A stretch of 18,011 nucleotides of DNA from a virus (lineage: Duplodnaviria > Heunggongvirae > Uroviricota > Caudoviricetes), in the IMG/VR virus record IMGVR_UViG_2630968500_000004, positions 1 through 18,011 of that record; one strand, given 5' to 3'. This document shows, in pieces, positions 3,485 to 18,011 of this stretch (position 1 is the first letter of the stretch; each line of letters starts with the position of its first letter). A program made the translations under genes and the position numbers. The notes under the pieces were generated by a model. It searched no databases. It was not told where the DNA came from and worked only from the letters and a program-made list of their open reading frames with translations.

Positions 3485-3505
3485 CCCGTTATGAGGAGTC
3501 TGCTT

Positions 3506-4327
3506 ATGACCCGTCTGGCTTCGCGCTTTGGCGCTGCAAACATTATTCGTCGTGACCGTCCGTTAACCCGCGAGGAGCTGTTTCGCGTGGTGCCCAGTGT
3601 GTTCAGCGAGGATAAACATGAATCCCGTAGTGAACGCTACACCTATATACCCACCATCTCCTTGCTGGACAGCCTGCAGCGAGAAGGCTTCCAGCCATTC
3701 TTTGCCTGTCAGACCCGTGTGCGTGATCCGGAGCGTCGCGAACACACCAAGCATATGCTGCGTCTACGGCGTGAGGGACAGATAACCGGTAAGCAGGTGC
3801 CGGAAATAATCCTGCTCAACTCTCACGATGGCAGCAGTTCGTACCAGATGCTGCCGGGACTATTTCGTGCGGTTTGTCAGAACGGGCTCGTCTGCGGTGA
3901 GTCGTTTGGCGAGGTGCGGGTGCCACACAAGGGGGACGTGGTGAGTCAGGTGATTGAAGGCGCGTATGAGGTGCTGGGGATTTTTGACCGGGTGGAGGAG
4001 AAACGGGATGCCATGCAGTCGTTGCTGTTGCCACCCCCGGCACAGCAGGCACTGGCAAAAGCCGCCCTCACATACCGCTTTGGTGAAGACCACCAGCCGG
4101 TGACTGAATCGCAGATCCTCTCCCCTCGCCGCTGGCAGGATGAGAGCAATGACCTGTGGACCACGTACCAGCGTATTCAGGAGAACCTGATTAAGGGCGG
4201 GCTCAGTGGCCGTAATGCCAAAGGAGGACGGTCACATACCCGTGCCGTTCGCGGTATCGACGGGGACGTGAAACTTAACCGGGCACTGTGGGTGATGGCG
4301 GAAGCCCTGCTCACGCAACTGCAGTGA
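3506..4327 (+). CDS. yfjQ: DUF932-family protein (YfjQ-like)
   Basis: Frame of ORF 3491..4327. Start placed at the internal ATG 3506 because GAGGAG lies 7 nt upstream, giving 273 aa, the length of E. coli YfjQ. Position directly downstream of the GTPase matches CP4-57. Confidence 0.7.
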   Translation: MTRLASRFGAANIIRRDRPLTREELFRVVPSVFSEDKHESRSERYTYIPTISLLDSLQREGFQPFFACQTRVRDPERREHTKHMLRLRREGQITGKQVPEIILLNSHDGSSSYQMLPGLFRAVCQNGLVCGESFGEVRVPHKGDVVSQVIEGAYEVLGIFDRVEEKRDAMQSLLLPPPAQQALAKAALTYRFGEDHQPVTESQILSPRRWQDESNDLWTTYQRIQENLIKGGLSGRNAKGGRSHTRAVRGIDGDVKLNRALWVMAEALLTQLQ

Positions 4328-4356
4328 CCGTTTAATGTTGCTGCTTTGTTAATATC

Positions 4357-4483
4357 GGACACCACCTGTCCGCATCGCACCGTGCTGACGGTCCTCACTC
4401 ACCGAGGGAAGGCCTGTAACCCCCGCTGCCTCTGGCTTTTGCAGAAATGAAAAATAGTTTCTGTGGTGTCCATACCCTGTCCG
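4357..4483 (+). promoter_or_regulatory. Inverted repeat GGACACCAC / GTGGTGTCC, each followed by a CTGTCCG direct repeat, upstream of the WYL regulator gene
   Basis: GGACACCAC 4357-4365 and its exact reverse complement GTGGTGTCC 4463-4471; CTGTCCG at 4366-4372 and 4477-4483. Lies in the 216-bp gap before the regulator ATG at 4544. Confidence 0.35.
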
Positions 4484-4543
4484 ACCCCCTCTTTAAAGTA
4501 ATCACATCATTTTCAGTCAGTTAACTTTCACGGAGAACGTCTC

Positions 4544-5245
4544 ATGACACAGGCAGAACGCCGCCATGACCGGCTGGCTGTCAGGCTGTCACTGATAATC
4601 AGCCGTCTGGTGGCAGGGGAAACGCTGAGTGTGCGTAAGCTTGCCGCTGAGTTTGGTGTGTCGGTGCGCACGCTGCGGCGTGATTTTCGTGAGCGGCTGA
4701 TGTATCTGGACCTGGAGTATCAGTCCGGATATTGCCGCTTACGCACTGCGGGCAGTGAGACGCAGATGGTGCCCGACGTGCTTATCTTTGCCCACCGCAG
4801 CGGGATGGCCGGTCTTTTCCCTGGCTTTGACCGTCGTCTGGTAAACGCACTGCTGATGTGCGATGAGTCTCCCTGCGTAATCGCACCCGCCAGTCCGGTT
4901 CCTTCGCCATCAGGCGCATTGTCTTTCTGGCGACTGATTCAGGCCATTACCGGGCGCAGGCGGGTGACTCTGATTGCCGAGGGGCAGCGCTGTGAGCGGC
5001 TGGCTCCCTGCCGGTTACTTATCCACCAGCAGGCCTGGTATCTGGTGGCAGAGCACGACGGACATATCGCCGTATTCTCCCTGGATGAAATCCATCTGAT
5101 TCAGCCTTTGCAGGAGACTTTTCGCCGCAATGACAGTCTGTGTCGCCTGGTTGAAGACCCGGTCTTCATTCAGGCCTTACCCCATTTTCGCTTTATCCAG
5201 CATTCACTGCTTACGTTTGTTCCGGCTGACAGCCCACCGGAATAG
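4544..5245 (+). CDS. yfjR: HTH/WYL-domain transcriptional regulator (YfjR-like)
   Basis: 233 aa. N-terminal HTH-like region ([20 protein letters not shown]) and a WYL motif ([22 protein letters not shown]). GGAG 8 nt upstream of the ATG. Length equals E. coli YfjR. Confidence 0.8.
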
Positions 5246-5285
5246 CGCAGGCGTTGTTATCAACGCGGCAACAGGGAGGAGCCCA

Positions 5286-5522
5286 GTGCCCGTTATTGCC
5301 ATTATCGCCATTGTTATCATCGTCATCATTCTGAACAAAACCGGAGTGTCCGACAGCCTCACGGCCTTGACACTTGCAACCGTTGCCGCACTACTGACGG
5401 GAGGTGGCGCAGCCGGTGCTGCCAGTGTCGCGCTGACGCCGTTCGTCGGCGTGCCAGTGGGTATTTTTGTGGGAATTTATGTCTTTGCCAAAGTGGTTCG
5501 TCTGATTTCAGGGAAAAAATAA
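5286..5522 (+). CDS. Small hydrophobic inner-membrane protein (78 aa)
   Basis: GTG start 5286 preceded by GGGAGGA with 5-nt spacing, within the frame of ORF 5130..5522. Translation is almost entirely hydrophobic (VPVIAIIAIVIIVIIL ... GIFVGIYVFAKVV). Stop TAA overlaps the next ATG (TAATG). Occupies the ypjK position of CP4-57; symbol not asserted. Confidence 0.5.
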   Translation: MPVIAIIAIVIIVIILNKTGVSDSLTALTLATVAALLTGGGAAGAASVALTPFVGVPVGIFVGIYVFAKVVRLISGKK

Positions 5523-5965
5523 TGAAACGTAAAACACTACCTCTGCTGGCGCTGGTTGCCACCTCTCTGTTTCTGAGCGCCTGCGATGACAGCAGTGATG
5601 ACCTCAAAGCTATCAGTAAATTTAAGGACCTCACGCCTCCGCGCTTCAGCGATGTGGTCAGTCGGCAGGATGATGTCAGCGAAGAATGGTCACAGGTTGG
5701 CTTTTCATCAGGTCTCACCCTGCAGGTCTTACGTACCCGTGAGTCGCCCGATGGCTGCGAGGGCGGTAGTTACTACTACCTCGTGGATATGCAGGAAAAA
5801 ACCATCCAGCCGCTGATGAATGCGCTGTGTATTGCCGATAACATCAAACTGGAATACCAGGAGGTGACGGACCCGTATACCAAAGAAAAATACTTTGAGT
5901 ACGCCCATGACGGCAAACTGATGGGGCAGCTACTGATACCCTCGAACCCTGACAATCAGGAATAA
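5522..5965 (+). CDS. yfjS: Lipoprotein (YfjS-like)
   Basis: 147 aa. Signal peptide with lipobox LSAC (MKRKTLPLLALVATSLFLSAC). Length and position match E. coli YfjS. Confidence 0.7.
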   Translation: MKRKTLPLLALVATSLFLSACDDSSDDLKAISKFKDLTPPRFSDVVSRQDDVSEEWSQVGFSSGLTLQVLRTRESPDGCEGGSYYYLVDMQEKTIQPLMNALCIADNIKLEYQEVTDPYTKEKYFEYAHDGKLMGQLLIPSNPDNQE

Positions 5966-5987
5966 AACAACGACAAAGGAGACAAGA

Positions 5988-6455
5988 ATGACAATACTTT
6001 CACTAAGTCGGTTTATGCTGGCGGGTGTACTGCTCGCGAGCTTTAATGCCTCTGCTATCCCGGGGTTCTGGCAGCAGGGTTACGGTCAGGGCAATACGGA
6101 ATACAGCGTGACCGAAGCCAGCGGAAAGACGTTTACCATCAACTGCACAGGGAACCCGGACCAGAATGGTTTCTATCAGCATTCAGTCTTTCTTACCCTT
6201 GCCGATGACAAGATGGTCAGTTCGCACGATGACGACACTACTATCACCGTAGTGATGGATCACCAGCAGTACATTATTCCGTCCAGCCTGGGCTGGCGTA
6301 ACGGCGATAACGCCTGGTTTGACTTCATCAGCAATATCTCTGAGGCCGGGCAGTTCGACGTCTACGTCAATGACCACAAAGCAGGGACCTTCACTGCGGA
6401 CCGGAAGAACACTGAGAAAGTTCTGTCCACTCTCGGAGACTGCAGCAACGACTGA
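5988..6455 (+). CDS. yfjT: Secreted/periplasmic protein (YfjT-like)
   Basis: 155 aa. N-terminal signal peptide ([23 protein letters not shown]). AGGAG upstream. Length and position match E. coli YfjT. Confidence 0.7.
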
Positions 6456-6481
6456 TAGTAGTATCTTCCCCAGCAAATCCA

Positions 6482-6516
6482 CCCCGACAGCTAGCAGGCT
6501 GCCGGGGTTTTCTTTT
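6482..6516 (+). terminator. Rho-independent terminator after the yfjT-like gene
   Basis: 10-bp stem CCCCGACAGC 6482-6491 / GCTGCCGGGG 6498-6507 with one A-C mismatch, followed by TTTTCTTTT. Confidence 0.55.
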
Positions 6517-6531
6517 ATCAGGAGCCCGAAA

Positions 6532-6681
6532 ATGACCCAATCCGTGTTGCTGCCACCGGGGCCTTTCACCCGGAGACAAGCGCAAGCGGTCACTACCACG
6601 TACAGCAATATCACACTCGAAGACGACCAGGGCAGTCACTTCCGTCTGGTGGTTCGTGATACTGAAGGCCGGATGGTCTGA
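6532..6681 (+). CDS. Small hypothetical protein (49 aa)
   Basis: ATG 6532 with GGAG 8 nt upstream, directly after the terminator; in frame with listed ORF 6319..6681. No recognisable family. Confidence 0.3.
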
Positions 6682-6868
6682 CGGGCATGGAACTTTGAGC
6701 CGGATGCCGGTGAAGGTCTTAACCGCTATATCCGCACCTCAGGCATCCGTACAGACACGGCCACCCGCTGATCGCGAAGCATTTACCCGCATTCACCTCC
6801 CCGAACACACTTTATATCCCCATACGCCAGCCATCGCCGCTGGCGTTTTTATTGACGGAGACATACCC

Positions 6869-7327
6869 ATGACAACACAGACGCAGCACGACCTCGCACC
6901 CGCTAACCAACCCGAATTTGAACTGACCGTCACGCCGGTCCCCGATGAACAGCGTATCGATTTCTGGCCACAGTACTTTGGCGCTATCCCGCAGTGGCTA
7001 CTCCTGGAGCCGCATATCTTCGCCTGGATGGACCGCTTCTGTGAGGGCTACAGCGGTGGTATCTGGTCGTTCTACACCCTCAGCAATGGCGGCGCATTTA
7101 TGTCCCCCGAGCCTGACAACGATGAGACATGGCGTCTGTTTAACTGCCTGAACGGTAACGATGCCCAAATGAGTGCAGAAGCAGCAGGTATTGCTGTCTG
7201 CCTGATTGCGTATAGCCACCATGCCTGCCGTACAGAATGTGACGCGATGACCGCACACTATTACCGCCTGCGGGAGTATGCCATGCAACATCCAGAGGCT
7301 CACGCCATTCTGCGTATTATCGACTGA
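6869..7327 (+). CDS. yfjX: Antirestriction-family protein (YfjX-like)
   Basis: Frame of ORF 6656..7327. Start set to the internal ATG 6869 (GGAG 9 nt upstream), giving 152 aa, the length of E. coli YfjX; the upstream extension looks non-coding. Family call is by resemblance, not alignment. Confidence 0.7.
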   Translation: MTTQTQHDLAPANQPEFELTVTPVPDEQRIDFWPQYFGAIPQWLLLEPHIFAWMDRFCEGYSGGIWSFYTLSNGGAFMSPEPDNDETWRLFNCLNGNDAQMSAEAAGIAVCLIAYSHHACRTECDAMTAHYYRLREYAMQHPEAHAILRIID

Positions 7328-7342
7328 CCGAAGGAGCAACAG

Positions 7343-7819
7343 ATGAAACAGCTTTCCTTTTTACCCGGCGAGATGACGCCACAGGACCGGCGTCTCATTC
7401 AGCGGGCGCTCAGGGCTCTGGACCGCCACCTGCATGAGCCCGGCGTAGCCTTCACCTCTACCCACGCCGTACGTGAATGGCTGCGACTGCATATGGCCGC
7501 GCTTGAGCGGGAAGAGTTCCGGGTGTTGTATCTGGACAACCAGAATCAGTTGATTGCCCATGAAACGCTCTTCACCGGCACGATTAACCGCACCGAGGTG
7601 CATCCCCGGGAGGTGGTCAAACGTGCTCTGCACTTCAACGCGGCGGCGGTGATACTCGCGCATAACCATCCTTCCGGCGAGACGACACCTAGCCAGGCCG
7701 ACAAAACCCTCACGCAGCGACTGGTTCAGGTGCTTCAGCTGGTGGATATCCGTGTCCCTGACCATCTGATTGTCGGTGGCAGGCAAATCTATTCGTTCGC
7801 AGAACACGGTCTGCTTTGA
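7343..7819 (+). CDS. yfjY: RadC-like JAB-domain protein (YfjY/YeeS/YkfG family)
   Basis: 158 aa with the JAMM-type motif HNHPSG and the conserved PSQAD segment. AGGAG upstream. Confidence 0.85.
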   Translation: MKQLSFLPGEMTPQDRRLIQRALRALDRHLHEPGVAFTSTHAVREWLRLHMAALEREEFRVLYLDNQNQLIAHETLFTGTINRTEVHPREVVKRALHFNAAAVILAHNHPSGETTPSQADKTLTQRLVQVLQLVDIRVPDHLIVGGRQIYSFAEHGLL

Positions 7820-7827
7820 GGTATTAC

Positions 7828-8049
7828 ATGAAAATTATCAGTAAACGCAGGGCAATGACGATATACCGCCAGCATCCTGAGTCCCGAATCTTTCGCTACT
7901 GCACCGGCAAATACCAGTGGCACGGTAGCGTCTGTCATTACACCGGCAGGGACGTTCCGGATATCGCCGGAGTCCTCGCGGTATACGCCGAACGCCGCCA
8001 GGACCGCAATGGGCCCTATACCTGCCTGATGAGCATCACCCTGAACTGA
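7828..8049 (+). CDS. ypjJ: DUF987-family small protein (YpjJ/YeeT-like)
   Basis: Frame of ORF 7816..8049. ATG 7828 preferred (GAGG upstream; 7816 is a TTG inside the RadC stop region). Sequence pattern RIFRYCTGKYQWHGS ... GPYTCLMSITLN is typical of YeeT/YpjJ proteins. Confidence 0.7.
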   Translation: MKIISKRRAMTIYRQHPESRIFRYCTGKYQWHGSVCHYTGRDVPDIAGVLAVYAERRQDRNGPYTCLMSITLN

Positions 8050-8067
8050 CAATAGTGGAGAACTGTA

Positions 8068-8747
<680 letters not shown>

Positions 8748-8811
8748 ACATTGCGTACAACCTTCCCGATTTACATTTCTGAACTTCCTCCCTTGTTTAC
8801 CTATTGCGTAA

Positions 8812-8847
8812 TGCGCCTGCTACTACCCGGCAGGCGCGTTATCTTTT
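8812..8847 (+). terminator. Rho-independent terminator after the toxin gene
   Basis: Perfect 8-bp stem GCGCCTGC 8812-8819 / GCAGGCGC 8829-8836, 9-nt loop, then GTTATCTTTTT. Confidence 0.6.
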
Positions 8848-9275
8848 TACGGACAAACAATCATGCAACCAGAAGTTGAAGTATTAACCGATCATAATGA
8901 GCTAATTTGTTCGAGCTTTATTGAACACATTGCCAACACATTAAATTTAGGAGTGGTGTACAACTAAACCTGCAGCCAAGGATGTATAGTGAGCGAAGCC
9001 CTATCAGGCCTTTTTGGTCAGTAGATAAGATTGATCTTCGTTGATAGAATTTACTTACACCAGCTGTTACATTAAGATAATTTTTTGGTGGGAGAATGAT
9101 AAGATCTTACGTAACAATTTGATTTTAATGGTGCGATAATAGGAACAATACCTAACGATCAATCACCATGATTTAAATGAATTTTTATGCTTTCGATTTT
9201 CTCACATACCCCCAAAAGTACCCCCACATTGTTTTTCGTCTCAATTTTGGGGTATGCGCTTACCAAGAAACACAG

Positions 9276-9464
9276 CTAACGCCGTGGTGATGGTTTGCGC
9301 CAGTGGTACTCTTGCGCGGTCATGCGTTGACGATGGCGCTCTTTTGCTGCGAGTGTACCGGCGACTCTACACCGCAATTCAAGCTTGTCAGCAGCATTTA
9401 GCGTAACCCCCTGCTGAGTTGCCATCTCGACTATAGCAGACTCGATCACTTCTGATTTCAGCAT
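9276..9464 (-). CDS. Small hypothetical protein (62 aa)
   Basis: Frame of minus ORF 9276..9473. ATG 9464 preferred because GAGGTGG lies 8 nt upstream. Last gene of the minus-strand operon. No family recognised. Confidence 0.4.
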   Translation of the reverse strand: MLKSEVIESAIVEMATQQGVTLNAADKLELRCRVAGTLAAKERHRQRMTAQEYHWRKPSPRR

Positions 9465-9515
9465 GAAAACCACCTCGCAAATATTGTTATATGTGACATG
9501 TCACCGAGCACACTA

Positions 9516-9989
9516 TTAGCCCATAAACCGACGATAAGCCTCTCCGGCTTCTTCTGCGGTAAGGCTTGTGGTCTCCGCCCTGATCGGCCCGCCGTCCTTA
9601 CCTGTAGTCTCGACTTTCAGCTTATTGGTGTAAGCATCTCCGCACTCTTTTGCGGCCTGTTCGATCAGCTGCGCCGTCAATGCGTAGTTTTTTATCGCCT
9701 CGGCTCGGTTTGCCATACGATCCAGCATTCGCAACCGGTACGCTTTGTTAGCGATCGGGATATCGGATATTTCACTCTGGAACCGGGCGCGAGTGTGGTT
9801 AAAGAGCTCGACCCACTTTTTGCTAAGATTTTTAGCCATCGAATTTTCAGGGTTGTAGGCCGATATCTGCTGCCGGGTAACAACGATACCAAAATCTTGT
9901 TTTACAAGTTCGACAATTCTTGATGGAGGTTCATAGCAGGCTAAAGATTGAATAATCATCACCTTAGCCATAGTTGGTAATGCTGCCAT
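9516..9989 (-). CDS. Phage small-terminase-like / DUF2280-like protein (tentative)
   Basis: 157 aa. N-terminal segment (IIQSLACYEPPSRIVELVKQDFGIVVTRQQISAY) resembles the HTH-type N-terminus of DUF2280 / small-terminase-like phage proteins as I remember them. Recognition is from memory and unverified. Confidence 0.45.
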   Translation of the reverse strand: MAALPTMAKVMIIQSLACYEPPSRIVELVKQDFGIVVTRQQISAYNPENSMAKNLSKKWVELFNHTRARFQSEISDIPIANKAYRLRMLDRMANRAEAIKNYALTAQLIEQAAKECGDAYTNKLKVETTGKDGGPIRAETTSLTAEEAGEAYRRFMG

Positions 9990-10081
9990 CGCTCACCTTT
10001 TGACAAAGGAAATCAAAGTAGCGCACTGAGTTCTGACCTCCCGCGCCGCTACTTAAAGTTACATATCACGCCATCTGACCG

Positions 10082-10261
10082 TCACCCTACGTTATTTCGC
10101 ATGGTTTCCGCTGTGCGAGATTCTTCGCTGATCGCACTCTCACCGAAGCTGCCAATACCATCTGGTTCCGGCTGCCCGTTGATATCATCCAGCCAGGTAC
10201 GAACCTTACCATTCTGGCTGGCTCCGCTTTCTTCTGGTTTCAGTTTTTCAATATTGCTCAT
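10082..10261 (-). CDS. Small acidic hypothetical protein (59 aa), absent from the ORF track
   Basis: Hand translation of the minus strand: MSNIEKLKPEESGASQNGKVRTWLDDINGQPEPDGIGSFGESAISEESRTAETMRNNVG. Its ATG (10261-10259) overlaps the spike-gene stop TGA (10260-10258) as ATGA, suggesting translational coupling. Confidence 0.3.
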   Translation of the reverse strand: MSNIEKLKPEESGASQNGKVRTWLDDINGQPEPDGIGSFGESAISEESRTAETMRNNVG

Positions 10262-10920
10262 TGTGGTTTTCCTGTGTTGCTGCCGCCTGATTGTACACCG
10301 CCGTGGGTATGGTTAATCTGGCTGATACCGTTGGCCGTTTGGTCGCCAGTGGAAGTGATCGTTCCGTTTACCTGCACGGGCCCGTTAAGGGTGATTTGAG
10401 AGCTGGTAATCGTAATGGCTCCACCAGCGGCCACTTCTACAAATGCCGCGCCATCATCGGTTCGCAGCTGCGCGGCGCTGGTACTGATACCGCTGATTTT
10501 CTTCACCTGCGACTGCGGGCCAGGAATCACGAACGCATCCGACAGATCTAAAACACGCCCGTCAGCTCGCTCCTGCACACCGCCGTTTTGCCACCAGAAA
10601 TCAATCGAACGCGAAGAGAATACGATAAGGCACTCATCACCTTCTTTGATAGGGAAGGTCAGGGTCACGCCACCGCCACGAGGGAACACAACTGGCAAAT
10701 CAACCAGAATAGGATACCTAACTGATTCATACTGATAGTCTTCCTCGACGGTGCCGGGTTTCGTCATTCTGGCAATTATTGCTACGTCGACGTCACAGGT
10801 CACTGTTTCCGGGTCAAATGAACGGATAATGCCTGGTAAGGCATTCTTTACCGCAGCATTGCTATTGCTCTGTATTTGGTTAACCGTATCTTGCTCATTG
10901 GCAGGTCGAATAAATGGCAT
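10258..10920 (-). CDS. Phage baseplate central spike protein, gpV / Gp138-type
   Basis: Frame of minus ORF 10258..10965. N-terminal LPGIIRSFDPETVTCDVDVAI is an OB-fold-like spike signature; C-terminus INHTHGGVQSGGSNTGKP carries the HxH apex motif typical of P2 gpV-type spikes. Start chosen at ATG 10920 (GGGG 5 nt upstream); the alternative TTG at 10965 would overlap the preceding gene. Confidence 0.6.
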   Translation of the reverse strand: MPFIRPANEQDTVNQIQSNSNAAVKNALPGIIRSFDPETVTCDVDVAIIARMTKPGTVEEDYQYESVRYPILVDLPVVFPRGGGVTLTFPIKEGDECLIVFSSRSIDFWWQNGGVQERADGRVLDLSDAFVIPGPQSQVKKISGISTSAAQLRTDDGAAFVEVAAGGAITITSSQITLNGPVQVNGTITSTGDQTANGISQINHTHGGVQSGGSNTGKPQ

Positions 10921-10930
10921 AGCTACCCCA

Positions 10931-11278
10931 TCAACCTGATATACGTTTACAGTCAAACGAGCCAATAATGCGAGGCTCGTCCATATTGCCGCGAATCAAC
11001 TCAACATTAAGCCAGCGTTTATTGCTTCCGTTCGGGTGAATGTATTCAAAGCCGTACATATTCCCATCACGCGCAGGCATCAATGTCATCTCAACTTTGA
11101 GTCCATCATCACCGAGTTCAGTAATTTTTTGAGATGTAACCATTTCCCCGTTAACTCTTGTCATTTCGCCGACTTTGGCAACAAGATTGAAGTTTCCACA
11201 TTGTGAAATTACTGTTCCAGTATTTGCTAAAGCATTAGTGGAAAGTATCACGGATAAGAAAATGAATGTTTTTTTCAT
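10931..11278 (-). CDS. Secreted protein with a cleavable signal peptide (115 aa), low-GC insert
   Basis: N-terminus MKKTFIFLSVILSTNALA followed by NTG: a classic Sec signal with an AxA site and no lipobox cysteine. Codon usage is visibly AT-richer than both flanking genes. Two cysteines in the mature part. Confidence 0.6.
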   Translation of the reverse strand: MKKTFIFLSVILSTNALANTGTVISQCGNFNLVAKVGEMTRVNGEMVTSQKITELGDDGLKVEMTLMPARDGNMYGFEYIHPNGSNKRWLNVELIRGNMDEPRIIGSFDCKRISG

Positions 11279-11282
11279 GCAG

Positions 11283-12374
11283 TTACCACTTATTTAGTGT
11301 TTCGCCAGAATAAATATCAGTAGCGCCCCGAGCTTCACAAGCCAGATCCATATACCATGCCTGCCCTCTGGTATCGCCGGTATAATTTATATACCGAACC
11401 TTATAAACACCGTCAGTTGCAATGCTGGCAGGTTGAGAGGTTGGTGGCGCATCAATCAGGTTTCCATTGGCATCCTTGATCTTCGTTATTGGTACAAGGT
11501 TTCCATCAATATCTTTTTCGACAAATCGCCCACTAAATATATCCTGATTCGACAATGGATTGCGGTACACCGACGCCTGATCCAACTGAATAAGCCCATT
11601 CAGTTGAATACTTGAATTGATTAAACAGCGTACATTAACCCCAGCTCCGATAGTTTGCTGAGGCATGCCCACCAGCCCAGTATTTGAGTTTAATACTACG
11701 GCCTGATGTGCCGCTGTATCTCTGGCAATCATGTCGACCTTGCCGTAACTAAACTGCCAGGTAGCCTTACACTGCGCAGCTACCTCATCAAGATAGTTAT
11801 GCACGTAACCAAAGAAAGCTCGCCCGCGAGGAAATACCGTTGATGGAAAAACCGGAGTGATACCGCGCCCGATACCATAGGGTTCCAAGCTCGTCATGAG
11901 AAGGTTATAGACGTCTTCAGTGGTGTAGCCTTTCTGAATGGTCGTACTGACGAACGCGCTGACAAACGCTTCTTCTGAATCACAGGCCTGCACGAGAATC
12001 CAGGAATCGACGAGATTATCCTTACCGGTCACTGTAAAACGGATATCACCGCTAAAGATCATCCCATAGTTTTGCCCATTGGTTTGACCTACCTGGTCAG
12101 GTGAAATCTCCCGGACGACACCAACTTCACTCTCCTGAACATCCTTAGCCAGGCCATCATATCCCGCTATCAGAACAATCTTGGCAAACTCACGCTGCAT
12201 AATACGGTTCTGAGTGGTCGGTGAAAGGTTGTAGATCTTGACCGTCGCGACAGCTGGCCATTTGTTATCGTTACGCTCTATATCAAAGGTAACTTTGAAA
12301 TCACTAAGGCTAATTCCTTTGCCATTCTCATCGATGAGCTGTAGCTCGAAATGGCGCATCCAGTTATATGACAT
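11283..12374 (-). CDS. Phage tail/baseplate protein, possibly a gpD-like hub (tentative)
   Basis: 363 aa, with an AGGAA ribosome-binding site. N-terminal beta-rich pattern (HFELQLIDENGKGISLSDFKVTFDIERNDNKWPAVATVKIYNLSP) resembles the N-terminal domain of P2 gpD / Mu gp44 hub proteins, and it sits upstream of the spike gene as in Mu-like tail modules. The coding call is solid; the hub assignment is weak. Confidence 0.5.
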   Translation of the reverse strand: MSYNWMRHFELQLIDENGKGISLSDFKVTFDIERNDNKWPAVATVKIYNLSPTTQNRIMQREFAKIVLIAGYDGLAKDVQESEVGVVREISPDQVGQTNGQNYGMIFSGDIRFTVTGKDNLVDSWILVQACDSEEAFVSAFVSTTIQKGYTTEDVYNLLMTSLEPYGIGRGITPVFPSTVFPRGRAFFGYVHNYLDEVAAQCKATWQFSYGKVDMIARDTAAHQAVVLNSNTGLVGMPQQTIGAGVNVRCLINSSIQLNGLIQLDQASVYRNPLSNQDIFSGRFVEKDIDGNLVPITKIKDANGNLIDAPPTSQPASIATDGVYKVRYINYTGDTRGQAWYMDLACEARGATDIYSGETLNKW

Positions 12375-12379
12375 AGTCG

Positions 12380-12547
12380 TTATTCCTGAATTGATGCCAG
12401 CGCTTTCGCCACCAGCCCACGGGCAATTTGATGGACAGACGGCGCTACGCCAATATCGGAGCGCTGACGTTCGCGCTCCTGGATCTTGCAGATTGCGGCG
12501 AACTGGTCGCCAGAGAGTAATACCGGCTTAACGTTTGGCTTTTTCAT
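12380..12547 (-). CDS. Small basic hypothetical protein (55 aa)
   Basis: Frame of minus ORF 12380..12640. ATG 12547 preferred (GGAGTG 6 nt upstream). Overlaps the 3' end of the upstream gene by about 20 nt. Confidence 0.4.
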   Translation of the reverse strand: MKKPNVKPVLLSGDQFAAICKIQERERQRSDIGVAPSVHQIARGLVAKALASIQE

Positions 12548-12716
12548 CCTGTTCACTCCAGAACCGTGCGTTTGCTTCGTTGAGGTTTGCATTGTTGCGA
12601 CACTCGCGATCGAAGTTATTGCGAGCCTTTGCCGCCTCAAGGTCTTGCCGGGTCAGCATCGGACGGCGTGTACTCTGTGGGTTGCCTGCTGCTAATTTTG
12701 GGTTGTATGTAGCCAT
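12528..12716 (-). CDS. Small hypothetical protein (62 aa)
   Basis: Frame of minus ORF 12528..12725. ATG 12716 preferred: strong TAAGGAGTG ribosome-binding site 8 nt upstream. Confidence 0.45.
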   Translation of the reverse strand: MATYNPKLAAGNPQSTRRPMLTRQDLEAAKARNNFDRECRNNANLNEANARFWSEQDEKAKR

Positions 12717-12728
12717 GCTGATCACTCC

Positions 12729-13280
12729 TTACCTTGTGCGGTGCCAGAAGCTGGCATTATCGGTGTTGATCTGGCGGAGAGAGTCGCCAGTGGTGAGAGT
12801 CTTCGGCGTTACGTTATTGGCCTTCATGTAGTCGCCCACCTGCTCCAGCACGTCGATAGCCTGATCCAGCGGGATTTCTGACAGCGGGGTCGGGTGTACG
12901 GCGCTGAACGCCTCAACAGGGGCATAGCGCAGCACATCGAGCGCGACAATGCGCGGGTCGGCGTCGGGCAGCGCTGAATCGTACTTTGGCGCTACGGCGC
13001 GTACCAGCCGCATGAACTCGGCATTCATGGCCGTTGGTGCTGTAGACGTTGGAGAAGCGCCGCTACCACTTCGGGTAATCATGTCACTATCGCGGGTGTA
13101 CATACGACGCAAACGGTCGCCGGTTGCAATGCGTGTAGCGCGTTCCTGTTTAAGCGTTGTTGCAAGATTTGCAATGATAGCCGCTACCTGTGCGTTACAG
13201 GCAAATACGGCTTCGCTTCCATCCGCGAACGTGACCACCCCGCTTTCACCAGATATAGAGATGTTTGAGATTTCTTGCAT
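12729..13280 (-). CDS. Hypothetical protein (183 aa), first gene of the minus-strand operon
   Basis: ATG at 13280-13278; long ORF with no recognisable family by eye. Followed by tightly spaced or overlapping downstream genes. Confidence 0.55.
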   Translation of the reverse strand: MQEISNISISGESGVVTFADGSEAVFACNAQVAAIIANLATTLKQERATRIATGDRLRRMYTRDSDMITRSGSGASPTSTAPTAMNAEFMRLVRAVAPKYDSALPDADPRIVALDVLRYAPVEAFSAVHPTPLSEIPLDQAIDVLEQVGDYMKANNVTPKTLTTGDSLRQINTDNASFWHRTR

Positions 13281-13314
13281 GGTTCAGAACCTTAGTAATT
13301 GCTCGAATTCTGAT

Positions 13315-13333
13315 CATTGCACAAATTGCAATG
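13315..13333. promoter_or_regulatory. Operator-like palindrome CATTGCA-n5-TGCAATG upstream of the minus-strand operon
   Basis: 7-bp arms at 13315-13321 and 13327-13333. ATTGCACA recurs at 13406-13413. Located 35-55 bp upstream of the 183-aa gene start. Confidence 0.3.
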
Positions 13334-13428
13334 TTAGTAAATATCGTTGCGAATATTGAAATAATAAATCAACCTGTTACTATGGATATGAGTCACTATT
13401 GTGTGATTGCACAGCATGGTTAACAAAA

Positions 13429-13462
13429 GCCCGCGCCTCTCCAAGCGTGGGCTTTTTCTTTT
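13429..13462. terminator. Rho-independent terminator, potentially bidirectional
   Basis: 8-bp stem GCCCGCGC 13429-13436 / GCGTGGGC 13445-13452 (one G-U wobble), loop CTCTCCAA, TTTTTCTTTTC downstream and ACAAAA upstream. Confidence 0.5.
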
Positions 13463-13842
13463 CTGGTCAGCAACGTGTCTCTTTCCCTCATCGGTTACTT
13501 AAAAAATCGATTCCACGCCCGGTATACCCTTCAATCCCTCAAGCCATGCGCTTGCCAAGCCCATCATGTATACAAAACCGGGCAAAAATACATTGAGGGG
13601 TATACAGCCATACCCCAGCAGTGGCAGGGGTTAGGAGGCATTGATTATCAATGCGTGGGGTGTGATAACTTTTTGTGGATTTATTCAGCAAAAACACATC
13701 GGTGTATCCGGTGATGCGGTCAGAGATCTGACACGTTCCCCCCCCTGGTGATCGGCGGAAAAGTCCGCCGATGCTGATGCTGGCCTAACCTGCTTTCGAT
13801 GTTTTCGTTTTAGAGAAAACGCTATAGATAAACAAAAACATG

Positions 13843-14133
13843 TTGGTTCAGTCGGTTCAGTTGGTTCAATTTGTAAAGATTGTTGTTTTATAAGGTTTAT
13901 TTATTGATGAGTGAACCAACAAAGCCATGTTTTGAACCAACAATCGCTATTTTCGTGTTGGTTCAGTGGGAAAGATTTACAGGCCAGCCAGAAAAGGGTG
14001 TTGGTTCAATAGCGGTATTTGTTGGTTCAAAATGGGCGTTTGTTGGTTCAGTGTTGGTTCACTTATGAACATATAAGTATATTAAATACATACAGTTATC
14101 TTAATTATGTAGTTACTGAACCAACTGAACCAA
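13843..14133. repeat. Iteron array: 12 copies of the octamer TTGGTTCA / TGAACCAA (one degenerate); candidate origin of replication
   Basis: Forward copies at 13843, 13853 (cGGTTCA, degenerate), 13861, 13958, 14001, 14022, 14043, 14054. Reverse copies at 13912, 13933, 14117, 14126. Irregular spacing, AT-rich context, immediately 3' of the primase-helicase gene. Confidence 0.7.
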
Positions 14134-14158
14134 CAAAAAACAATCTCGTGTGTGTGCT

Positions 14159-16840
14159 TTATTCTTCGCCCTCTATCTCGTCGGGTCGTAGCTGGAGCAC
14201 ATAAACGTTTATCTGGCGTCCATCAATTCGTGGGGATTTACGCTGATACCCCCTTCCGCTGGCTGGCGGTTTCAGCACCCCAGCTCCGGCAAGCACACGG
14301 GCAAACTGTTTAGCATTAAAGCCCTGCGCTATCTCCTTTTCGAACGCAGCCGGAAAGGTGTAGAACACTACGGGGCTTTCGTCATGCTCGCCTTTCTGAC
14401 GGTATCCGGCTAAATCCCGGATAGGCATGTCAGCCGGGCTATACGGGAATGGCGCGAAACGGCTCAGGCCGTAGGCATTAAGAAACGCCTCCGCCTGCTC
14501 AATGATCTGCTTATGCTCACGGTTCCCCGTGCCGAACTCTTTTACCCAGGCGTTAAAGCCATGCTGGATGGCGTCCCGGCTTTCCTGCTCCCCCCAGCCA
14601 GTGACAGGCATCCCGAGCACCAACGCCGCCTCCAGAATAGCGAACCGCTCGCCTACACGATGAACCTGTTCGCCATAATCAGCAGGGATAAGACTACGCC
14701 AGCGCTCCTGCGCCGCTTTGACAGCTTGTTTCGCCTCCTGCTGGTGGCCTGCAAGCCATTTAATCCATTCACGGCCTGCGGCTCCGTGGTTCGTCTGGTA
14801 TGCCTCTTTGAGTGCGTCAGCGTGCTGCTTGCCGTTCTGGTACTCATGGTGCGATACGGATTTCTCCATCGGTAAATTAAGCAGTCGCACCAGTTGCCCG
14901 GCCTTAACTTTCAGCCCACCAGCAGAAAGAAACGTCTCAATGTCCATTTCCCCGGTACTGATCGCCACGGTACGCCAGCGCTTTAACTCGCGGTTGCCTC
15001 CCTCCTTCGCCCCCTGTAGCTTTCCGGCACCGTTAAACAGCGTGTAAGCAGACGTAGCAACGTCTTTCGCGCTGCTACCCTGCCCCACTTCGTCCAGGGG
15101 TAACAGGCTATCGTTATGCGCTTCCGCTTCGTTGGCGATACCCAAAGCAGTACCGTACCAGGTGAGGCGCAGGGCATCAGGTTCACCGTAAAGGCTGCTG
15201 GCTATATTGGCGGTCGTCGTCTTACCAGCACTGGACTGTTCGAAAAGGTGAACGCCGAAACCGTCAGCACCAACAAGCCCGATCAGCGGCGCAGACAGCG
15301 CAGCAGCAACGCCCAGCATCATTGACGGGTTGCCCAGCGCAAGGCGCGCCACCGAATCACGCCAGCTTTCCGGCGTTCCACTGACGGTATAGCCACCAGC
15401 CGCAGCACTCCGACCACTGAATAACAGCGGTATCTCTGGCTCACCAATAACATCACCATCCGGCATGATGTACGCCCCGCTGTGCCAGCCTGTGGTGTGG
15501 CTGATCTGCCATTCCTTGCCGCTACCGGTTCGCTGTAGCCAGTCGGCCAGAATCGCCCGCAACGATGGTTTGGTCGTTACACTGACACCGCCGTTTTTCA
15601 GCGTGCGCCATCCCTCACGGTCGCCAATGTCCTCCCATGGAAGCGCCCGGGTAACTTGCCCCCGGTTGCCGGGGACGTCCCAACGCAGGATCAGAAAGCG
15701 CTGTCTGGCGTTATCACTCCCCGCACCAGCAATCTCCAGCGGAGAGCATAGCCACGCCTCGGTATTGATAATTTCCCCTGTGTCTTTATCCACTTTCGGG
15801 GTGATCCAGTGAATGCCATCCGCACGGCTCTCTACTCGCGGTTTCAGATCGTCGTCGATACCGGGTTTTTTCTTGCCGCCGTCGATAGCTGTCAGTGTCG
15901 CGCCCACTTTCTTACCCTCCGGTTGGTACATTGAGTCGTTAAATGCTGCTGTGGCCGCTTCGAGGCCGTATTGCTGGTGGTAGTCGTTCCAGTCCGCTTT
16001 ATAGTCCACTGGTGGCATGGAAACCCAGCCAGAAACGGCTTTCGCTGCTTTCTCTGCGGCCTCCTTGCCAGTGTTAACTTTCACTCCTCCAATTCCGTCA
16101 CTTTCGCCGCTCTGATCGTTATCTGCGGCAATGATGATCTGCGCGTTCGGGTAGCGCTGACGCATCGCCATAGCAACAGCGGGGAGGTTCCCGGCGTCAA
16201 TTGCGGCCACCGCCAGCGCATCAGGTCGCATATGCTGACCGGATATGACTGTCGCCAGCCCTTCCCCGATCAGCACTACATTCGGCGTATCAACGTTACC
16301 CAGGGCAAAGAAAGATCCTTTTTTTACCGTGCCAGCCACCAGCCGCTTACTACCATCAGGTTTAATGACCTGCGCCCCGGTAATCGCCCCGGCTACGTTC
16401 GTCAATGTGATCAACATCGAGCCATCAGACAGCAGCGGGAAGGGGCGCTGTAGCCCCTTTGATGTGAGGTATTCCGATTGACCTGATACAGCCTTGGCAG
16501 CCAGCGCAGCAACCTTAGCCACGATATCGGTTTGAGGCTTCTCTCTGGCTGGCTGCTGTTCCGGCAGCGGCAGCGCCATCACTTCCGCCACCATCACAGC
16601 TGCCTCACGCGCACCGCACTGCCTGACCTTCATCACCAGATCCAGCCCCGTACCTGCGCCACAATGTGAGCAAAAGTAAGTACCTCGCCCGTCCTTGTCG
16701 TCAAAGCGGTAACGGGTATTGCCACCGCAAGCCGGGCATGGTCCCTCGCTGCGATTGGTTGGAATACCGAGCCGTTCAAAAATTGGCTGCCAGTGGCCGG
16801 TCGCCTTGATGCGCACATCGTTTATAAAATTATCTTTCAC
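14159..16840 (-). CDS. P4-alpha-like DNA primase-helicase (zinc-binding primase domain, Toprim, C-terminal ATPase)
   Basis: 893 aa. N-terminal zinc ribbon CPACGG ... CSHCG, Toprim-like acidic motif IIIAADNDQSGESDG, P-loop-like SSAGKTT in the C-terminal half. Architecture typical of satellite/island primase-helicases. Confidence 0.85.
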   Translation of the reverse strand: MKDNFINDVRIKATGHWQPIFERLGIPTNRSEGPCPACGGNTRYRFDDKDGRGTYFCSHCGAGTGLDLVMKVRQCGAREAAVMVAEVMALPLPEQQPAREKPQTDIVAKVAALAAKAVSGQSEYLTSKGLQRPFPLLSDGSMLITLTNVAGAITGAQVIKPDGSKRLVAGTVKKGSFFALGNVDTPNVVLIGEGLATVISGQHMRPDALAVAAIDAGNLPAVAMAMRQRYPNAQIIIAADNDQSGESDGIGGVKVNTGKEAAEKAAKAVSGWVSMPPVDYKADWNDYHQQYGLEAATAAFNDSMYQPEGKKVGATLTAIDGGKKKPGIDDDLKPRVESRADGIHWITPKVDKDTGEIINTEAWLCSPLEIAGAGSDNARQRFLILRWDVPGNRGQVTRALPWEDIGDREGWRTLKNGGVSVTTKPSLRAILADWLQRTGSGKEWQISHTTGWHSGAYIMPDGDVIGEPEIPLLFSGRSAAAGGYTVSGTPESWRDSVARLALGNPSMMLGVAAALSAPLIGLVGADGFGVHLFEQSSAGKTTTANIASSLYGEPDALRLTWYGTALGIANEAEAHNDSLLPLDEVGQGSSAKDVATSAYTLFNGAGKLQGAKEGGNRELKRWRTVAISTGEMDIETFLSAGGLKVKAGQLVRLLNLPMEKSVSHHEYQNGKQHADALKEAYQTNHGAAGREWIKWLAGHQQEAKQAVKAAQERWRSLIPADYGEQVHRVGERFAILEAALVLGMPVTGWGEQESRDAIQHGFNAWVKEFGTGNREHKQIIEQAEAFLNAYGLSRFAPFPYSPADMPIRDLAGYRQKGEHDESPVVFYTFPAAFEKEIAQGFNAKQFARVLAGAGVLKPPASGRGYQRKSPRIDGRQINVYVLQLRPDEIEGEE

Positions 16841-17055
16841 GGCTTAACCTCATCCACTGATTGAAACTCTGTTAAAAAACGCAAATCCGACTGCATACAC
16901 GGCGATGAGTAGCCATCACGATAAAATGTCACTCTGTTGAATCGGTAGCTTTCCACCGTCACCAGACAACCCCGCTTATCCTTCCATTTATCGCCTTTAC
17001 GAATCACAGGGCGAGCGAAGCCACTGGCAAGAGAGCCAGTTAATTTCTTTTCCAT
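16837..17055 (-). CDS. Hypothetical protein (72 aa) overlapping the primase start
   Basis: Stop overlaps the primase ATG; AAAGG upstream. No family recognised; not AlpA-like by eye. Confidence 0.45.
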   Translation of the reverse strand: MEKKLTGSLASGFARPVIRKGDKWKDKRGCLVTVESYRFNRVTFYRDGYSSPCMQSDLRFLTEFQSVDEVKP

Positions 17056-17057
17056 GG

Positions 17058-17354
17058 TTATTTACCTTTCGTCATCTGACGACACTGATATTCCGCATTG
17101 GCTGCGGTATCAGATAACGCTCGCGCCAGCGGCATTAATTCCATCAGCATCCCACCAATATCTCGGAAATCTGTTGCTGACGGCTCATATTCACCGTTCT
17201 CAGCACCACCAGCGTAGAACATCATCTTACCTACAGCGGCGATCCCATTCAGGATGCTATCGGCGGCGCACTCAGCACGGGAAGACAGCATCTGGAGATC
17301 AGATTTATCGGTATCAGGGAAATCGGTGCGCACAAAATCGTTGTAAAGGTTCAT
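17058..17354 (-). CDS. Hypothetical protein (98 aa) coupled to the recombinase gene
   Basis: ATG overlaps the recombinase stop (ATGA); GGAGGT 5 nt upstream. No family recognised. Confidence 0.45.
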   Translation of the reverse strand: MNLYNDFVRTDFPDTDKSDLQMLSSRAECAADSILNGIAAVGKMMFYAGGAENGEYEPSATDFRDIGGMLMELMPLARALSDTAANAEYQCRQMTKGK

Positions 17355-18011
17355 GCTGTGACCTCCATAGCCAGACGTGACTGGATCGCGGATGCTTTAC
17401 TACCGAGCTGTAAATAGGTGCGGGTAATAGCCGGGTTGCTATGCCCCAGCATTTCAGAAGCCACCAGCAAGCCTTGCTCACCGCCTGCTGACATGAGGTT
17501 AAACGCGGCTATTTTGCGACTGGAGTATGCGCTAAGGCGCAGCTTGGCGTTAATGAAACGGGTGAACCACTGCATAACATCATGCAGCTTGCGCCAGATA
17601 GTCTGGCGAGTAACGCTACCTTCCAGACATTGGCAACGGTTACTTTCGATTTGAGAGCGGGAAAATACCAGGTCGTCCTCTACCAGATTCCGATCCTGAC
17701 GGTCACGCAGCCGCTTGATGATGCCTGGCGGTAACTGCTTGGTGTCGTGTTTGACGTCAGCCTTTGCCACCAGCTCGAATACTATGGCCTGTTCTTCGCC
17801 GTTCATGTCGGCGGCCAGTTCGTCACAACCGATGCTATCCCACTTCATGTAGGCGATATGATCAGCGGCCATCCGGGCGGCATCCTTACGTTGCTGGCGC
17901 ACAATCTCGATACCTTTGCGGGTTGCCCGCGCTTCGGCGGCTTTGGTTTGCTTGGCAACGATAATTGTCGCCTGCCCCGTTTCCCAATTGACGCAGGAAT
18001 AGCGGAGGGTG
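17351..18011 (-). CDS. Tyrosine-type site-specific recombinase/integrase, C-terminal catalytic part (5' end lies outside the window)
   Basis: Reading frame stays open to the window edge; the listed start at 17902 is an internal GTG. C-terminus has a tyrosine-recombinase-like pattern (LGHSNPAITRTYLQ, with an upstream conserved-arginine region). Family call by eye. Confidence 0.55.
   Translation of the reverse strand, partial: TLRYSCVNWETGQATIIVAKQTKAAEARATRKGIEIVRQQRKDAARMAADHIAYMKWDSIGCDELAADMNGEEQAIVFELVAKADVKHDTKQLPPGIIKRLRDRQDRNLVEDDLVFSRSQIESNRCQCLEGSVTRQTIWRKLHDVMQWFTRFINAKLRLSAYSSRKIAAFNLMSAGGEQGLLVASEMLGHSNPAITRTYLQLGSKASAIQSRLAMEVTA

What the first reader, a model, noticed from the sequence alone, without database searches (positions are those of the whole stretch)
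10931..11278. Low-GC secreted protein wedged between the hub-like and spike genes
The 115-aa ORF has a textbook Sec signal peptide and markedly AT-richer composition than both neighbours, and it sits exactly between two structural-like genes with only 4-10 nt gaps. This looks like a moron insertion. Periplasmic morons in prophages often act in superinfection exclusion or as envelope-acting effectors.
Basis: partly seen in the sequence, partly recalled or inferred. Interest (0 to 1): 0.55.

Follow-up and report, generated by a model that had tools for sequence, protein, structure and literature searches.

The report
Exported accessory protein beside baseplate hub
This small gene encodes an uncharacterised protein that is exported to the periplasm, always sits just after the tail baseplate-hub gene in a group of enterobacterial prophages and their satellites, is clearly not a tail building block, and most plausibly acts at the cell envelope against incoming phage tails, although that function is untested.

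Summary
There is a 115-aa ORF on the minus strand at 10931-11278, with a Sec-type signal peptide and GC of 0.40 against 0.47 (hub) and 0.52 (spike). The gaps to its neighbours are 4 and 10 nt.

The "moron insertion" reading is only partly right. The gene belongs to a small Enterobacterales-only family (PHROG 3443, no Pfam). In about 120 surveyed loci it directly follows the hub gene. These loci are SEN34/Mulock-like myovirus tail modules and PICI-like satellites that carry a captured hub-X-spike cassette. The window's copy lies in such a roughly 12.7-kb satellite at tRNA-Thr.

- Low GC is family-wide, so it does not mark a recent insertion.
- I found no promoter or terminator of its own.
- dN/dS is about 0.1, so the gene is under purifying selection.

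It is nevertheless accessory, not structural:
- Close relatives lack it or carry a lipoprotein at the same spot.
- One prophage has about seven paralogues.
- It is the gene least co-evolved with the baseplate core.
- All 91 unique copies keep a signal peptide and a cysteine pair.

The predicted fold is a generic 8-stranded beta-barrel.

Best guess, inferred only: a periplasmic binder that blocks tail-tip penetration, giving superinfection exclusion or resistance to lysis from without, in the manner of T4 Spackle.

The parts
10931..11278 (-). Gene X: 115-aa exported protein (PHROG 3443 family). Signal peptide is residues 1-18 (nt 11225-11278). The mature 8-stranded beta-barrel is residues 19-115, with invariant Cys27 and Cys110.
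11283..12374 (-). Baseplate hub gene (363 aa), 4 nt upstream of X.
   Evidence: phrog_196 baseplate hub E 1.9e-77; PF22759 E217_GP41 weak; NF047561. 55-59% identical over its full length to the hubs of SEN34, Mulock and Omnitron.
10258..10920 (-). Membrane-puncturing tail spike (220 aa), 10 nt downstream of X.
   Evidence: PF18352 (name masked in the output) E 1.8e-37 plus PF18946 Apex motif; RefSeq annotation.
10082..10261 (-). 59-aa ORF after the spike. It is satellite-specific and conserved in related satellites.
9516..9989 (-). DUF2280 protein, the last gene of the satellite. It may be terminase-small-subunit-like: its C-terminal 23 aa resemble the SEN34 TerS C-terminus, but only weakly.
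   Evidence: PF10045 E 2.9e-39; recurs at the end of related satellites.
12380..12547 (-). 55-aa ORF that always directly precedes the captured tail-tip genes in related satellites, whatever the extent of the cassette.
12528..12716 (-). 62-aa satellite ORF.
12729..13280 (-). 183-aa satellite ORF of unknown function, conserved in related satellites.
13841..14151 (.). Iteron-like TGTTGGTTCA repeats next to the primase gene, a candidate replication origin.
   Evidence: families D4, D6, D10; L001 24442-24752 equals window 13841-14151.
14159..16840 (-). Primase/helicase (Zn-ribbon, Toprim, DUF927) of the satellite replication zone.
9203..9226 (.). One copy of a 24-nt imperfect direct repeat. The partner lies 12,710 nt away, outside the window, between the integrase gene and tRNA-Thr. 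This is the candidate att boundary of the satellite.
   Evidence: (family D3)

Best explanation
Shown. Gene X encodes a Sec-exported, soluble periplasmic protein. After cleavage at A-L-A|N, the mature ~97-aa domain is an 8-stranded beta-barrel stapled by an invariant Cys27-Cys110 pair, with highly conserved loops (NGExVTSQK, MPARDGNMYGF).

It is a long-standing accessory gene that rides directly behind the baseplate-hub gene. It occurs in SEN34/Mulock-type temperate myoviruses of Enterobacterales, whose baseplates are of the E217/Pam3 type. It also occurs in PICI-like satellites that captured the tail-tip cassette.

In this window it lies in the late zone of a ~12.7-kb satellite at tRNA-Thr of E. 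coli G5. There it is translated from the same transcript as hub and spike, with no promoter or terminator of its own. It is not a virion part.

Inferred. Once in the periplasm it binds a conserved partner met by an incoming tail tip. Candidates are the spike or hub tip, the lytic-transglycosylase domain of the tape measure, or a host envelope factor needed for penetration. Binding would block penetration or DNA delivery. That would give superinfection exclusion or resistance to lysis from without, as T4 Spackle does for the gp5 tail lysozyme.
For: Export:
- Signal-peptide features are present in 91 of 91 unique homologues, with an invariant Cys pair and no lipobox.
- The AF2 model has pLDDT 86 with an all-beta mature domain.
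- A natural fusion places the X domain behind a lipoprotein anchor at the same locus position.

Fixed position:
- In 83 prophage loci and 28 satellite loci, X follows the hub within a few nt.
- 28 of 32 loci chosen through the hub, not through X, have it.

Not structural:
- It is absent from yong1 (hub 55% identical) and PSTCR3.
- It is replaced by a ~233-aa lipoprotein in L140/L142/L144, whose flanks are 86-90% identical in DNA to the X-bearing L141.
- About 7 tandem paralogues occur in L032.
- Its distance correlation with every tail gene is the lowest (0.52-0.69), while Dit, plug, hub and W correlate at 0.86-0.91 across it.
- In the E217 structure the hub gp41 anchors the tip gp43 directly, and gp42 is not among the proteins built (PMC10329688).

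Functional: dN/dS is 0.11-0.14 in both clades.

Envelope theme at this junction:
- Unrelated exported or membrane proteins occupy it in Magia, L140, SEN34, Mulock and E. coli prophages (DUF4282).

Possible target:
- The tape measure of these phages carries an SLT domain.

Precedent: T4 Spackle (PMC7677548).
Against: - No experiment or expression data bear on function.
- The fold match is generic. Avidins and other barrels score as high or higher, and Foldseek against PDB and BFVD gives nothing significant.
- The PliC/MliC signature motifs are absent from the family alignment.
- There are no PADLOC, Pfam, NCBIfam or PDB sequence hits.
- No promoter was detected, which implies late co-expression with the tail genes. 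That is an unusual timing for an exclusion protein of a lysogen.
- X assorts independently of the spike: 65 pairs have near-identical X with spikes more than 20% different. A strict X/own-spike pairing is therefore not supported.
- The strongly conserved loops fit a conserved host target or ligand as well as a phage target.
Confidence: 0.4

Rival explanations
1. X modifies or masks a host envelope component, such as a receptor, a periplasmic or inner-membrane entry factor, or a lipid or peptidoglycan ligand held in the barrel. Under this reading it is a host-directed conversion or receptor-masking factor in the manner of Cor or Llp, and it does not bind phage parts.
For: - The loops are very conserved across two old clades and more than 15 genera, which fits a conserved host target.
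- X is unlinked from spike type.
- The calycin-like barrel fold is typical of small-ligand binders such as avidins, lipocalins and FABPs.
- A lipoprotein replaces X in close relatives.
Against: - X itself is not a lipoprotein (0 of 91 with a lipobox), unlike Cor and Llp.
- Its strict position beside the hub, and its retention in minimal hub-X-spike satellite cassettes, suggests a tie to the tail tip.
- No ligand or target was identified.
Confidence: 0.25
2. X is a classical moron: a recently inserted, autonomously transcribed lysogenic-conversion gene.
For: - GC is lower than in the neighbours.
- It sits between genes that are adjacent in some relatives.
- The hub-spike junction is a cargo hot spot.
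Against: - No promoter or terminator lies in the 4-nt and 10-nt gaps, and none is embedded upstream.
- Low GC is shared by essentially all 103 loci.
- Satellite and prophage clades are separate for X, hub and spike, which implies old co-inheritance.
Confidence: 0.1
3. X is a tail-tip structural or assembly protein, and its hydrophobic N-terminus is a membrane-insertion or anchoring segment, not a cleaved signal peptide.
For: - It is always in tail modules.
- The tight spacing suggests translational coupling with hub and spike.
- It is retained in every satellite cassette.
Against: - It is absent or replaced in close relatives with intact tail modules.
- It is amplified to about 7 copies in one prophage.
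- It shows the weakest co-evolution with the baseplate proteins.
- The conserved AXA-type site and Cys pair point to the periplasm.
- The related E217 baseplate needs nothing between hub and tip.
Confidence: 0.07
4. In this particular satellite, X is a passenger carried along when hub and spike were captured. It has no role of its own in the satellite.
For: - PICI late zones capture helper late-gene clusters en bloc (PMC10111431).
- E. coli G5 has no matching helper tail module.
Against: - The satellite copies are intact and form an old clade of their own. They remain under purifying selection (dN/dS 0.14).
- The variable cargo that lies between X and spike in prophages has been lost in satellites, yet X is kept in all 28.
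Confidence: 0.1

Closest known systems
T4 Spackle (gp61.3), the periplasmic inhibitor of the gp5 tail lysozyme
   Same: It is a small Sec-exported periplasmic phage protein. It acts on the tail-tip apparatus of incoming phage and gives superinfection exclusion and resistance to lysis from without (PMC7677548). The phages studied here also carry a tail-borne peptidoglycan hydrolase, the SLT domain in the tape measure.
   Different: From my own knowledge, Spackle is helical and early-expressed, and it is not encoded in the tail module. X is an all-beta barrel with no sequence or fold relation to it, sits inside the late tail operon, and has no demonstrated target.
Exclusion genes embedded in tail modules: the HK97 gp15 moron, and the Cor (T1/phi80/N15) and Llp (T5) lipoproteins
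   Same: These are non-structural, envelope-located proteins encoded among tail or receptor-binding genes that block entry of related phages. This description rests on my own knowledge, with the T5 Llp paper listed. As with X, their position is a swap site for such genes.
   Different: gp15 is an inner-membrane protein with its own transcription signals. Cor and Llp are lipoproteins that mask an outer-membrane receptor. X has no lipobox (0 of 91), no transmembrane anchor after cleavage, and no detectable promoter of its own.
PliC/MliC and PhiA periplasmic inhibitors of peptidoglycan hydrolases, and T6SS periplasmic immunity proteins
Gram-negative PICI and helper-embedded PICI satellites with a 'late zone' of captured helper late genes (PMC10111431)
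   Same: The window element has a P4-type integrase, AlpA, an Ash-family protein, a DUF927 primase with iteron-like repeats, and then late genes. This is the four-zone layout. Relatives lie inside prophage late operons.
   Different: The published set centred on lambdoid helpers and capsid or terminase genes. Here the captured cluster is the myovirus tail-tip complex (hub-X-spike, sometimes with tape measure, Dit and plug), and it forms an old satellite-specific clade.

Membership tests
Sec (SPase I) secreted protein | Positively charged n-region, hydrophobic h-region, small residues at -3/-1, no lipobox, no twin-arginine | tested here: met
   The N-terminus is MKK-TFIFLSVILSTN-ALA|N. 91 of 91 homologues have K/R in the first 8 aa and a hydrophobic 10-mer with KD >=2.0, and 0 of 91 have a lipobox. 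These are rule-based checks only; no SignalP was available.
Sec (SPase I) secreted protein | Experimentally demonstrated export and cleavage | not testable with these tools
   This needs a PhoA fusion, fractionation or N-terminal sequencing.
Moron (extra autonomous gene in a phage late operon) | Present between two genes that are adjacent in related phages | tested here: met
   PSTCR3 hub and spike overlap by 4 nt. yong1 and L140/L142/L144 lack X.
Moron (extra autonomous gene in a phage late operon) | Own promoter and terminator | tested here: not met
   No minus-strand promoter-like site lies upstream of X and no terminator follows it. The gaps are 4 and 10 nt. Across 91 loci, 5% have an upstream site against 4% in control windows. 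These are consensus scans only, so weak promoters cannot be excluded.
Moron (extra autonomous gene in a phage late operon) | Base composition distinct from neighbours | tested here: met
   GC is 0.40 against 0.47 and 0.52. The difference is family-wide, in 98 to 103 of 103 loci, so it does not date the insertion.
Moron (extra autonomous gene in a phage late operon) | Expressed from the repressed prophage | not testable with these tools
   No transcript data.
Baseplate or tail structural protein | Present in all related tail modules and co-evolving with its contact partners | tested here: not met
   X is absent or replaced in close relatives. It has the lowest distance correlations of all 11 tail genes. 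It occurs as paralogue arrays.
Cor/Llp-type exclusion lipoproteins | Lipobox and lipid anchor | tested here: not met
   0 of 91 homologues have [LVI][ASTVI][GAS]C. Only the rare fusions P0100 and P0126 carry a lipoprotein N-terminus.
PliC/MliC lysozyme inhibitors | 8-stranded beta-barrel fold | tested here: inconclusive
PliC/MliC lysozyme inhibitors | Family sequence signature or profile match | tested here: not met
   There is no Pfam or NCBIfam hit and no PDB profile hit at E<=10. The conserved motifs of X (NGExVTSQK, MPARDGNMYGF, WLNVELIR) are its own.
Known anti-phage defence proteins (PADLOC) | Match to a PADLOC model | tested here: not met
   0 families for X and for its nine neighbours.
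Gram-negative PICI-type satellite (context of the gene) | Integrase + AlpA + primase with adjacent ori + late zone; no full set of virion genes | tested here: met
   P4-type integrase, Phage_AlpA, Ash, and Toprim/DUF927 primase. Iteron-like repeats. Only hub, X and spike among the tail genes. The element is 12.7 kb between 24-nt repeats beside tRNA-Thr. Induction and transfer were not tested.

The most novel reading that the evidence does not exclude
Hub-X-spike is an exclusion-and-escape cassette. Under this reading, X in the periplasm disables incoming tail tips of a given hub/spike type. Satellites carry their own diverged hub and spike so that their particles can enter cells already protected by the helper prophage's X. 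That would include entering cells in order to integrate into the helper prophage itself. Their own X would then shut out rival satellites. Prophage arrays of X paralogues would be a counter-move that widens the range excluded.
Probability: 0.08. Interest if true: 0.8.

Novelty: new member of a known kind. Interest (0 to 1): 0.45.

Why it matters
If X blocks tail-tip penetration from the periplasm, it would be a second, structurally unrelated example of the Spackle principle. It would also be widespread in prophages of Klebsiella, Salmonella, E. coli, Serratia, Photorhabdus and Yersinia, which bears on phage-therapy host range.

Its retention in satellites that carry only hub, X and spike raises a further question: why should a satellite bring its own membrane-piercing tip? 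Even without a function, the result defines a new exported protein family. It also marks the hub-spike junction of E217/Pam3-type myoviruses as a swap site for envelope-targeted cargo.

Tried and rejected
- Family searches. Pfam, NCBIfam and PADLOC give nothing for X, and PHROGs gives only phrog_3443 with no function. A profile of 71 homologues against PDB sequences gives no hit at E<=10.
- Profile search of 1.8 billion representatives. The family is small. The hits to giant Ig-repeat surface proteins cover only profile positions ~30-92 and fall in Ig/PKD repeats. I treat them as motif-level resemblance, not homology.
- Cognate pairing of X with its own spike. Rejected as a strict rule, because many pairs share X but not spike.
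- An embedded promoter in the hub 3' end. No enrichment was found, and the 3' end of the hub is not AT-richer across the family.
- Lipoprotein reading. Rejected.
- Prophage reading of the window. Rejected in favour of a satellite.
- Exact att repeats from the tRNA. None of 14 nt or longer; only a 24-nt imperfect repeat.
- Rfam on the window. No hit.

Full report
**1. The observation**

The window matches E. coli G5 chromosome NZ_CP060065.1 at 100% identity. The ORF at 10931-11278 lies on the minus strand and encodes 115 aa, beginning MKKTFIFLSVILSTNALANTG.

- Upstream, 4 nt away, is a 363-aa baseplate hub gene (phrog_196, E 1.9e-77; weak PF22759 E217_GP41).
- Downstream, 10 nt away, is a 220-aa membrane-puncturing spike (PF18352 plus the Apex motif).
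- GC is 0.402 for the ORF, 0.466 for the hub and 0.519 for the spike. GC3 is 0.379, 0.473 and 0.525.

I call the gene X.

**2. What the protein is**

X matches PHROG 3443 (unknown function) end to end. It matches nothing in Pfam, NCBIfam, PADLOC or PDB sequences.

A search of 5.8 billion proteins gave 79 clusters, and every one that carries an organism name is from Enterobacterales. An exhaustive profile search of 1.8 billion representatives found 63 clusters at E<=0.001, of which 30 reach E<1e-10.

Alignments show three things:
- an N-terminus that varies in sequence but always looks like a signal peptide;
- an invariant cysteine pair (C27, C110);
- very conserved stretches: NGExVTSQK, MPARDGNMYGF, WLNVELIR and IIGSFDC.

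After start codons were corrected, 91 of 91 unique homologues have K/R in the first 8 residues, a strongly hydrophobic 10-mer and at least two cysteines. None has a lipobox.

AlphaFold2 with 71 sequences gives pLDDT 86. It predicts an N-terminal helix at low confidence, which is the signal peptide, followed by an eight-stranded beta-barrel.

- periplasmic hydrolase inhibitors: PliC 7.0, PhiA 6.8, MliC 5.6;

Foldseek against PDB and BFVD is not significant. The fold therefore says "small periplasmic binder" and no more.

**3. Where the family lives**

I fetched 36 genomic and 80 viral loci through X. I mapped tail and satellite genes on them by tblastn.

*Prophages.* Eighty-three loci are complete myovirus tail modules with this order: sheath, tube, tape measure (with an SLT lytic-transglycosylase domain), Dit-like, plug (Pam3_gp18), hub, X, a variable stretch (median about 1.2 kb, up to 4 kb), spike, sheath initiator, baseplate J, wedge (Pfam names). 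SEN34 and Mulock are named examples.

*Satellites.* Twenty-eight loci, including the window, are satellite-like. Their order is integrase, AlpA, Ash, a second recombinase, DUF4222, DUF927 primase, small ORFs, then hub-X-spike, a 59-aa ORF and DUF2280. Some also carry Dit and plug, or tape measure, Dit and plug, before the hub. None has sheath, tube or wedge genes. In satellites X abuts the spike, with a gap of about 10-30 nt.

In every case X starts within a few nucleotides of the hub stop codon.

To remove the bias of selecting loci through X, I also fetched 32 loci through the hub. Of these, 28 have X directly after it.

**4. Not a recent or autonomous insertion**

- X has lower GC than the hub in 98 of 103 loci and lower than the spike in 103 of 103. 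The AT-richness is therefore an old family trait.
- In the window, no sigma-70-like promoter precedes X on its strand and no terminator follows it.
- Across 91 loci, promoter-like sites occur upstream of X in 5%, against 4% of control windows inside the hub.
- Satellite and prophage copies form separate clades for X, hub and spike alike. The nearest neighbour is of the same class in 21 of 22 satellite and 68 of 69 prophage copies.
- dN/dS is 0.11 in prophages and 0.14 in satellites. The hub is at 0.05-0.065 and the spike at 0.14-0.16.

**5. But accessory, not structural**

- Providencia phage PSTCR3 has the hub overlapping the spike. Hafnia phage yong1 (hub 55% identical) has other ORFs there and no X.
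- L140, L142 and L144 carry a ~233-aa lipoprotein exactly where X would be. For L140 I compared the flanking DNA with the X-bearing L141 and found 86-90% identity.
- Burkholderia phage Magia has an unrelated secreted 123-aa protein between hub and spike. PSTCR3 has a secreted 157-aa protein just before the hub.
- A Serratia aquatilis prophage has about seven X paralogues of two subtypes in a row.
- A natural fusion, P0100, puts the X domain behind a lipoprotein anchor, again directly after the hub.
- In a correlation matrix of pairwise distances for 11 tail genes, Dit, plug, hub and sheath initiator co-vary at rho 0.86-0.91, even across X. X has the lowest values with everything, 0.52-0.69.
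- In the cryo-EM structure of the related E217 baseplate, the hub gp41 anchors the tip gp43 directly. The ORF between them, gp42, is not among the proteins built (PMC10329688).

The hub-spike junction is thus a swap site for envelope-targeted cargo. X is its most common and most stable occupant in Enterobacterales.

**6. The element in the window**

The genes from 9516 to the window's end, together with those beyond it, form a ~12.7-kb island beside tRNA-Thr. It is bounded by a 24-nt imperfect repeat and has iteron-like repeats next to the primase gene.

It carries a P4-type integrase, AlpA, an Ash-family protein and a primase. This is the four-zone Gram-negative PICI layout, and the late zone of such elements is known to capture helper late genes (PMC10111431).

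Relatives lie inside prophage late operons. In L058 the satellite sits between the prophage W and J genes. In L042 and L051 it sits directly before a head-gene run, g6 then the major capsid gene, whose capsid protein is 97% identical to that of SEN34. This matches the published helper-embedded PICIs.

E. coli G5 has no second hub/spike-like place at the sensitivity of blastn, so no matching helper tail module was found there.

**7. Mechanism**

*Shown.* X is an exported, disulfide-stapled barrel with conserved loops. It is co-transcribed with hub and spike, is non-structural, and is under purifying selection.

*Inferred.* It binds a conserved partner in the periplasm and interferes with the penetration step of incoming tails. 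That would give superinfection exclusion or resistance to lysis from without, as T4 Spackle does for the gp5 lysozyme (PMC7677548). The SLT domain on the tape measure is a candidate target.

*Against.*
- The fold evidence is generic.
- The apparent late timing is unusual for an exclusion protein.
- X does not track the spike: 65 pairs share X but differ by more than 20% in spike, and 124 pairs share the hub but differ in X.

A host-directed role, such as masking a receptor or entry factor or binding a ligand, is the main rival. I put the tail-directed exclusion model at about 0.4.

**8. Verdict**

X is a new, uncharacterised member of a known kind: phage-borne exported accessory proteins lodged in tail modules. 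It sits in an interesting setting, a satellite that carries its own tail tip. Interest is 0.45.

Noticed in passing
window 9203-18011 (continues beyond the window; L001 19804-32537): The finding does not lie in a prophage. It lies in a ~12.7-kb PICI-like satellite at tRNA-Thr whose only virion genes are hub, X and spike. Related satellites carry graded versions of the tail-tip cassette: hub-X-spike alone, with Dit and plug added, or with tape measure added as well. They never carry sheath, tube or wedge genes. I did not find this satellite type, one that brings its own membrane-piercing tip, in the papers I read.
   Followed up: partly
L058 1-15200; L042 and L051 about 11200-20300; L004 plus L007 (Pantoea stewartii NZ_CP046558, 3.434-3.473 Mb): Relatives of the satellite are embedded in, or abut, the late operon of SEN34-like prophages. 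In L058 the satellite is between baseplate genes W and J. In L042 and L051 it lies directly before a head-gene run (g6, then the major capsid gene), with a capsid protein 97% identical to SEN34. This matches the published helper-embedded PICI configuration (PMC10111431), but with myovirus helpers.
   Followed up: partly
window 17351-18011 (gene cut by the window end; L001 27952-28827): A second, 291-aa tyrosine recombinase inside the satellite is 87-98% identical across otherwise diverged satellites. That is far more conserved than any other satellite gene. Its role is unknown.
   Followed up: no
window 12380-12547: A 55-aa ORF always sits immediately upstream of the first captured tail gene in related satellites, whether that gene is the hub, Dit or the tape measure. 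It may be a small regulator of the cassette.
   Followed up: no
L032 9440-14328 (Serratia aquatilis NZ_CP173186): About seven X-family paralogues lie between hub and spike. They fall into two subtypes, each copy has its own signal peptide, and one is truncated.
   Followed up: partly
L140 7047-7748, L144 7047-7748, L142 3976-4677: A ~233-aa lipoprotein (MKLKTIFLPLLCIVMLNGC..., no Pfam match) replaces X directly after the hub. For L140, the flanking DNA is 86-90% identical to the X-bearing L141.
   Followed up: partly
window 9516-9989: The DUF2280 protein closes the satellite. Its last 23 residues resemble the C-terminus of the SEN34 small terminase (weak). This hints that it redirects helper packaging.
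   Followed up: no
window 1-9200: The rest of the window is a CP4-6-like island: GTPase, DUF932, YfjR, antirestriction, a JAB-domain protein (RefSeq name), and the YafW/YkfI toxin-antitoxin pair. In the genome it adjoins the locus of heat resistance (clpK, hsp20-GI and others), so thrW carries tandem islands.
   Followed up: no
proteins P0098, P0103, P0111 and others: The X profile (positions ~30-92) hits repeated Ig/PKD-type modules of giant surface proteins at E down to 3e-14. This is probably motif-level resemblance (GRNGYQYRC against RDGNMYGFEY). It remains unexplained.
   Followed up: partly
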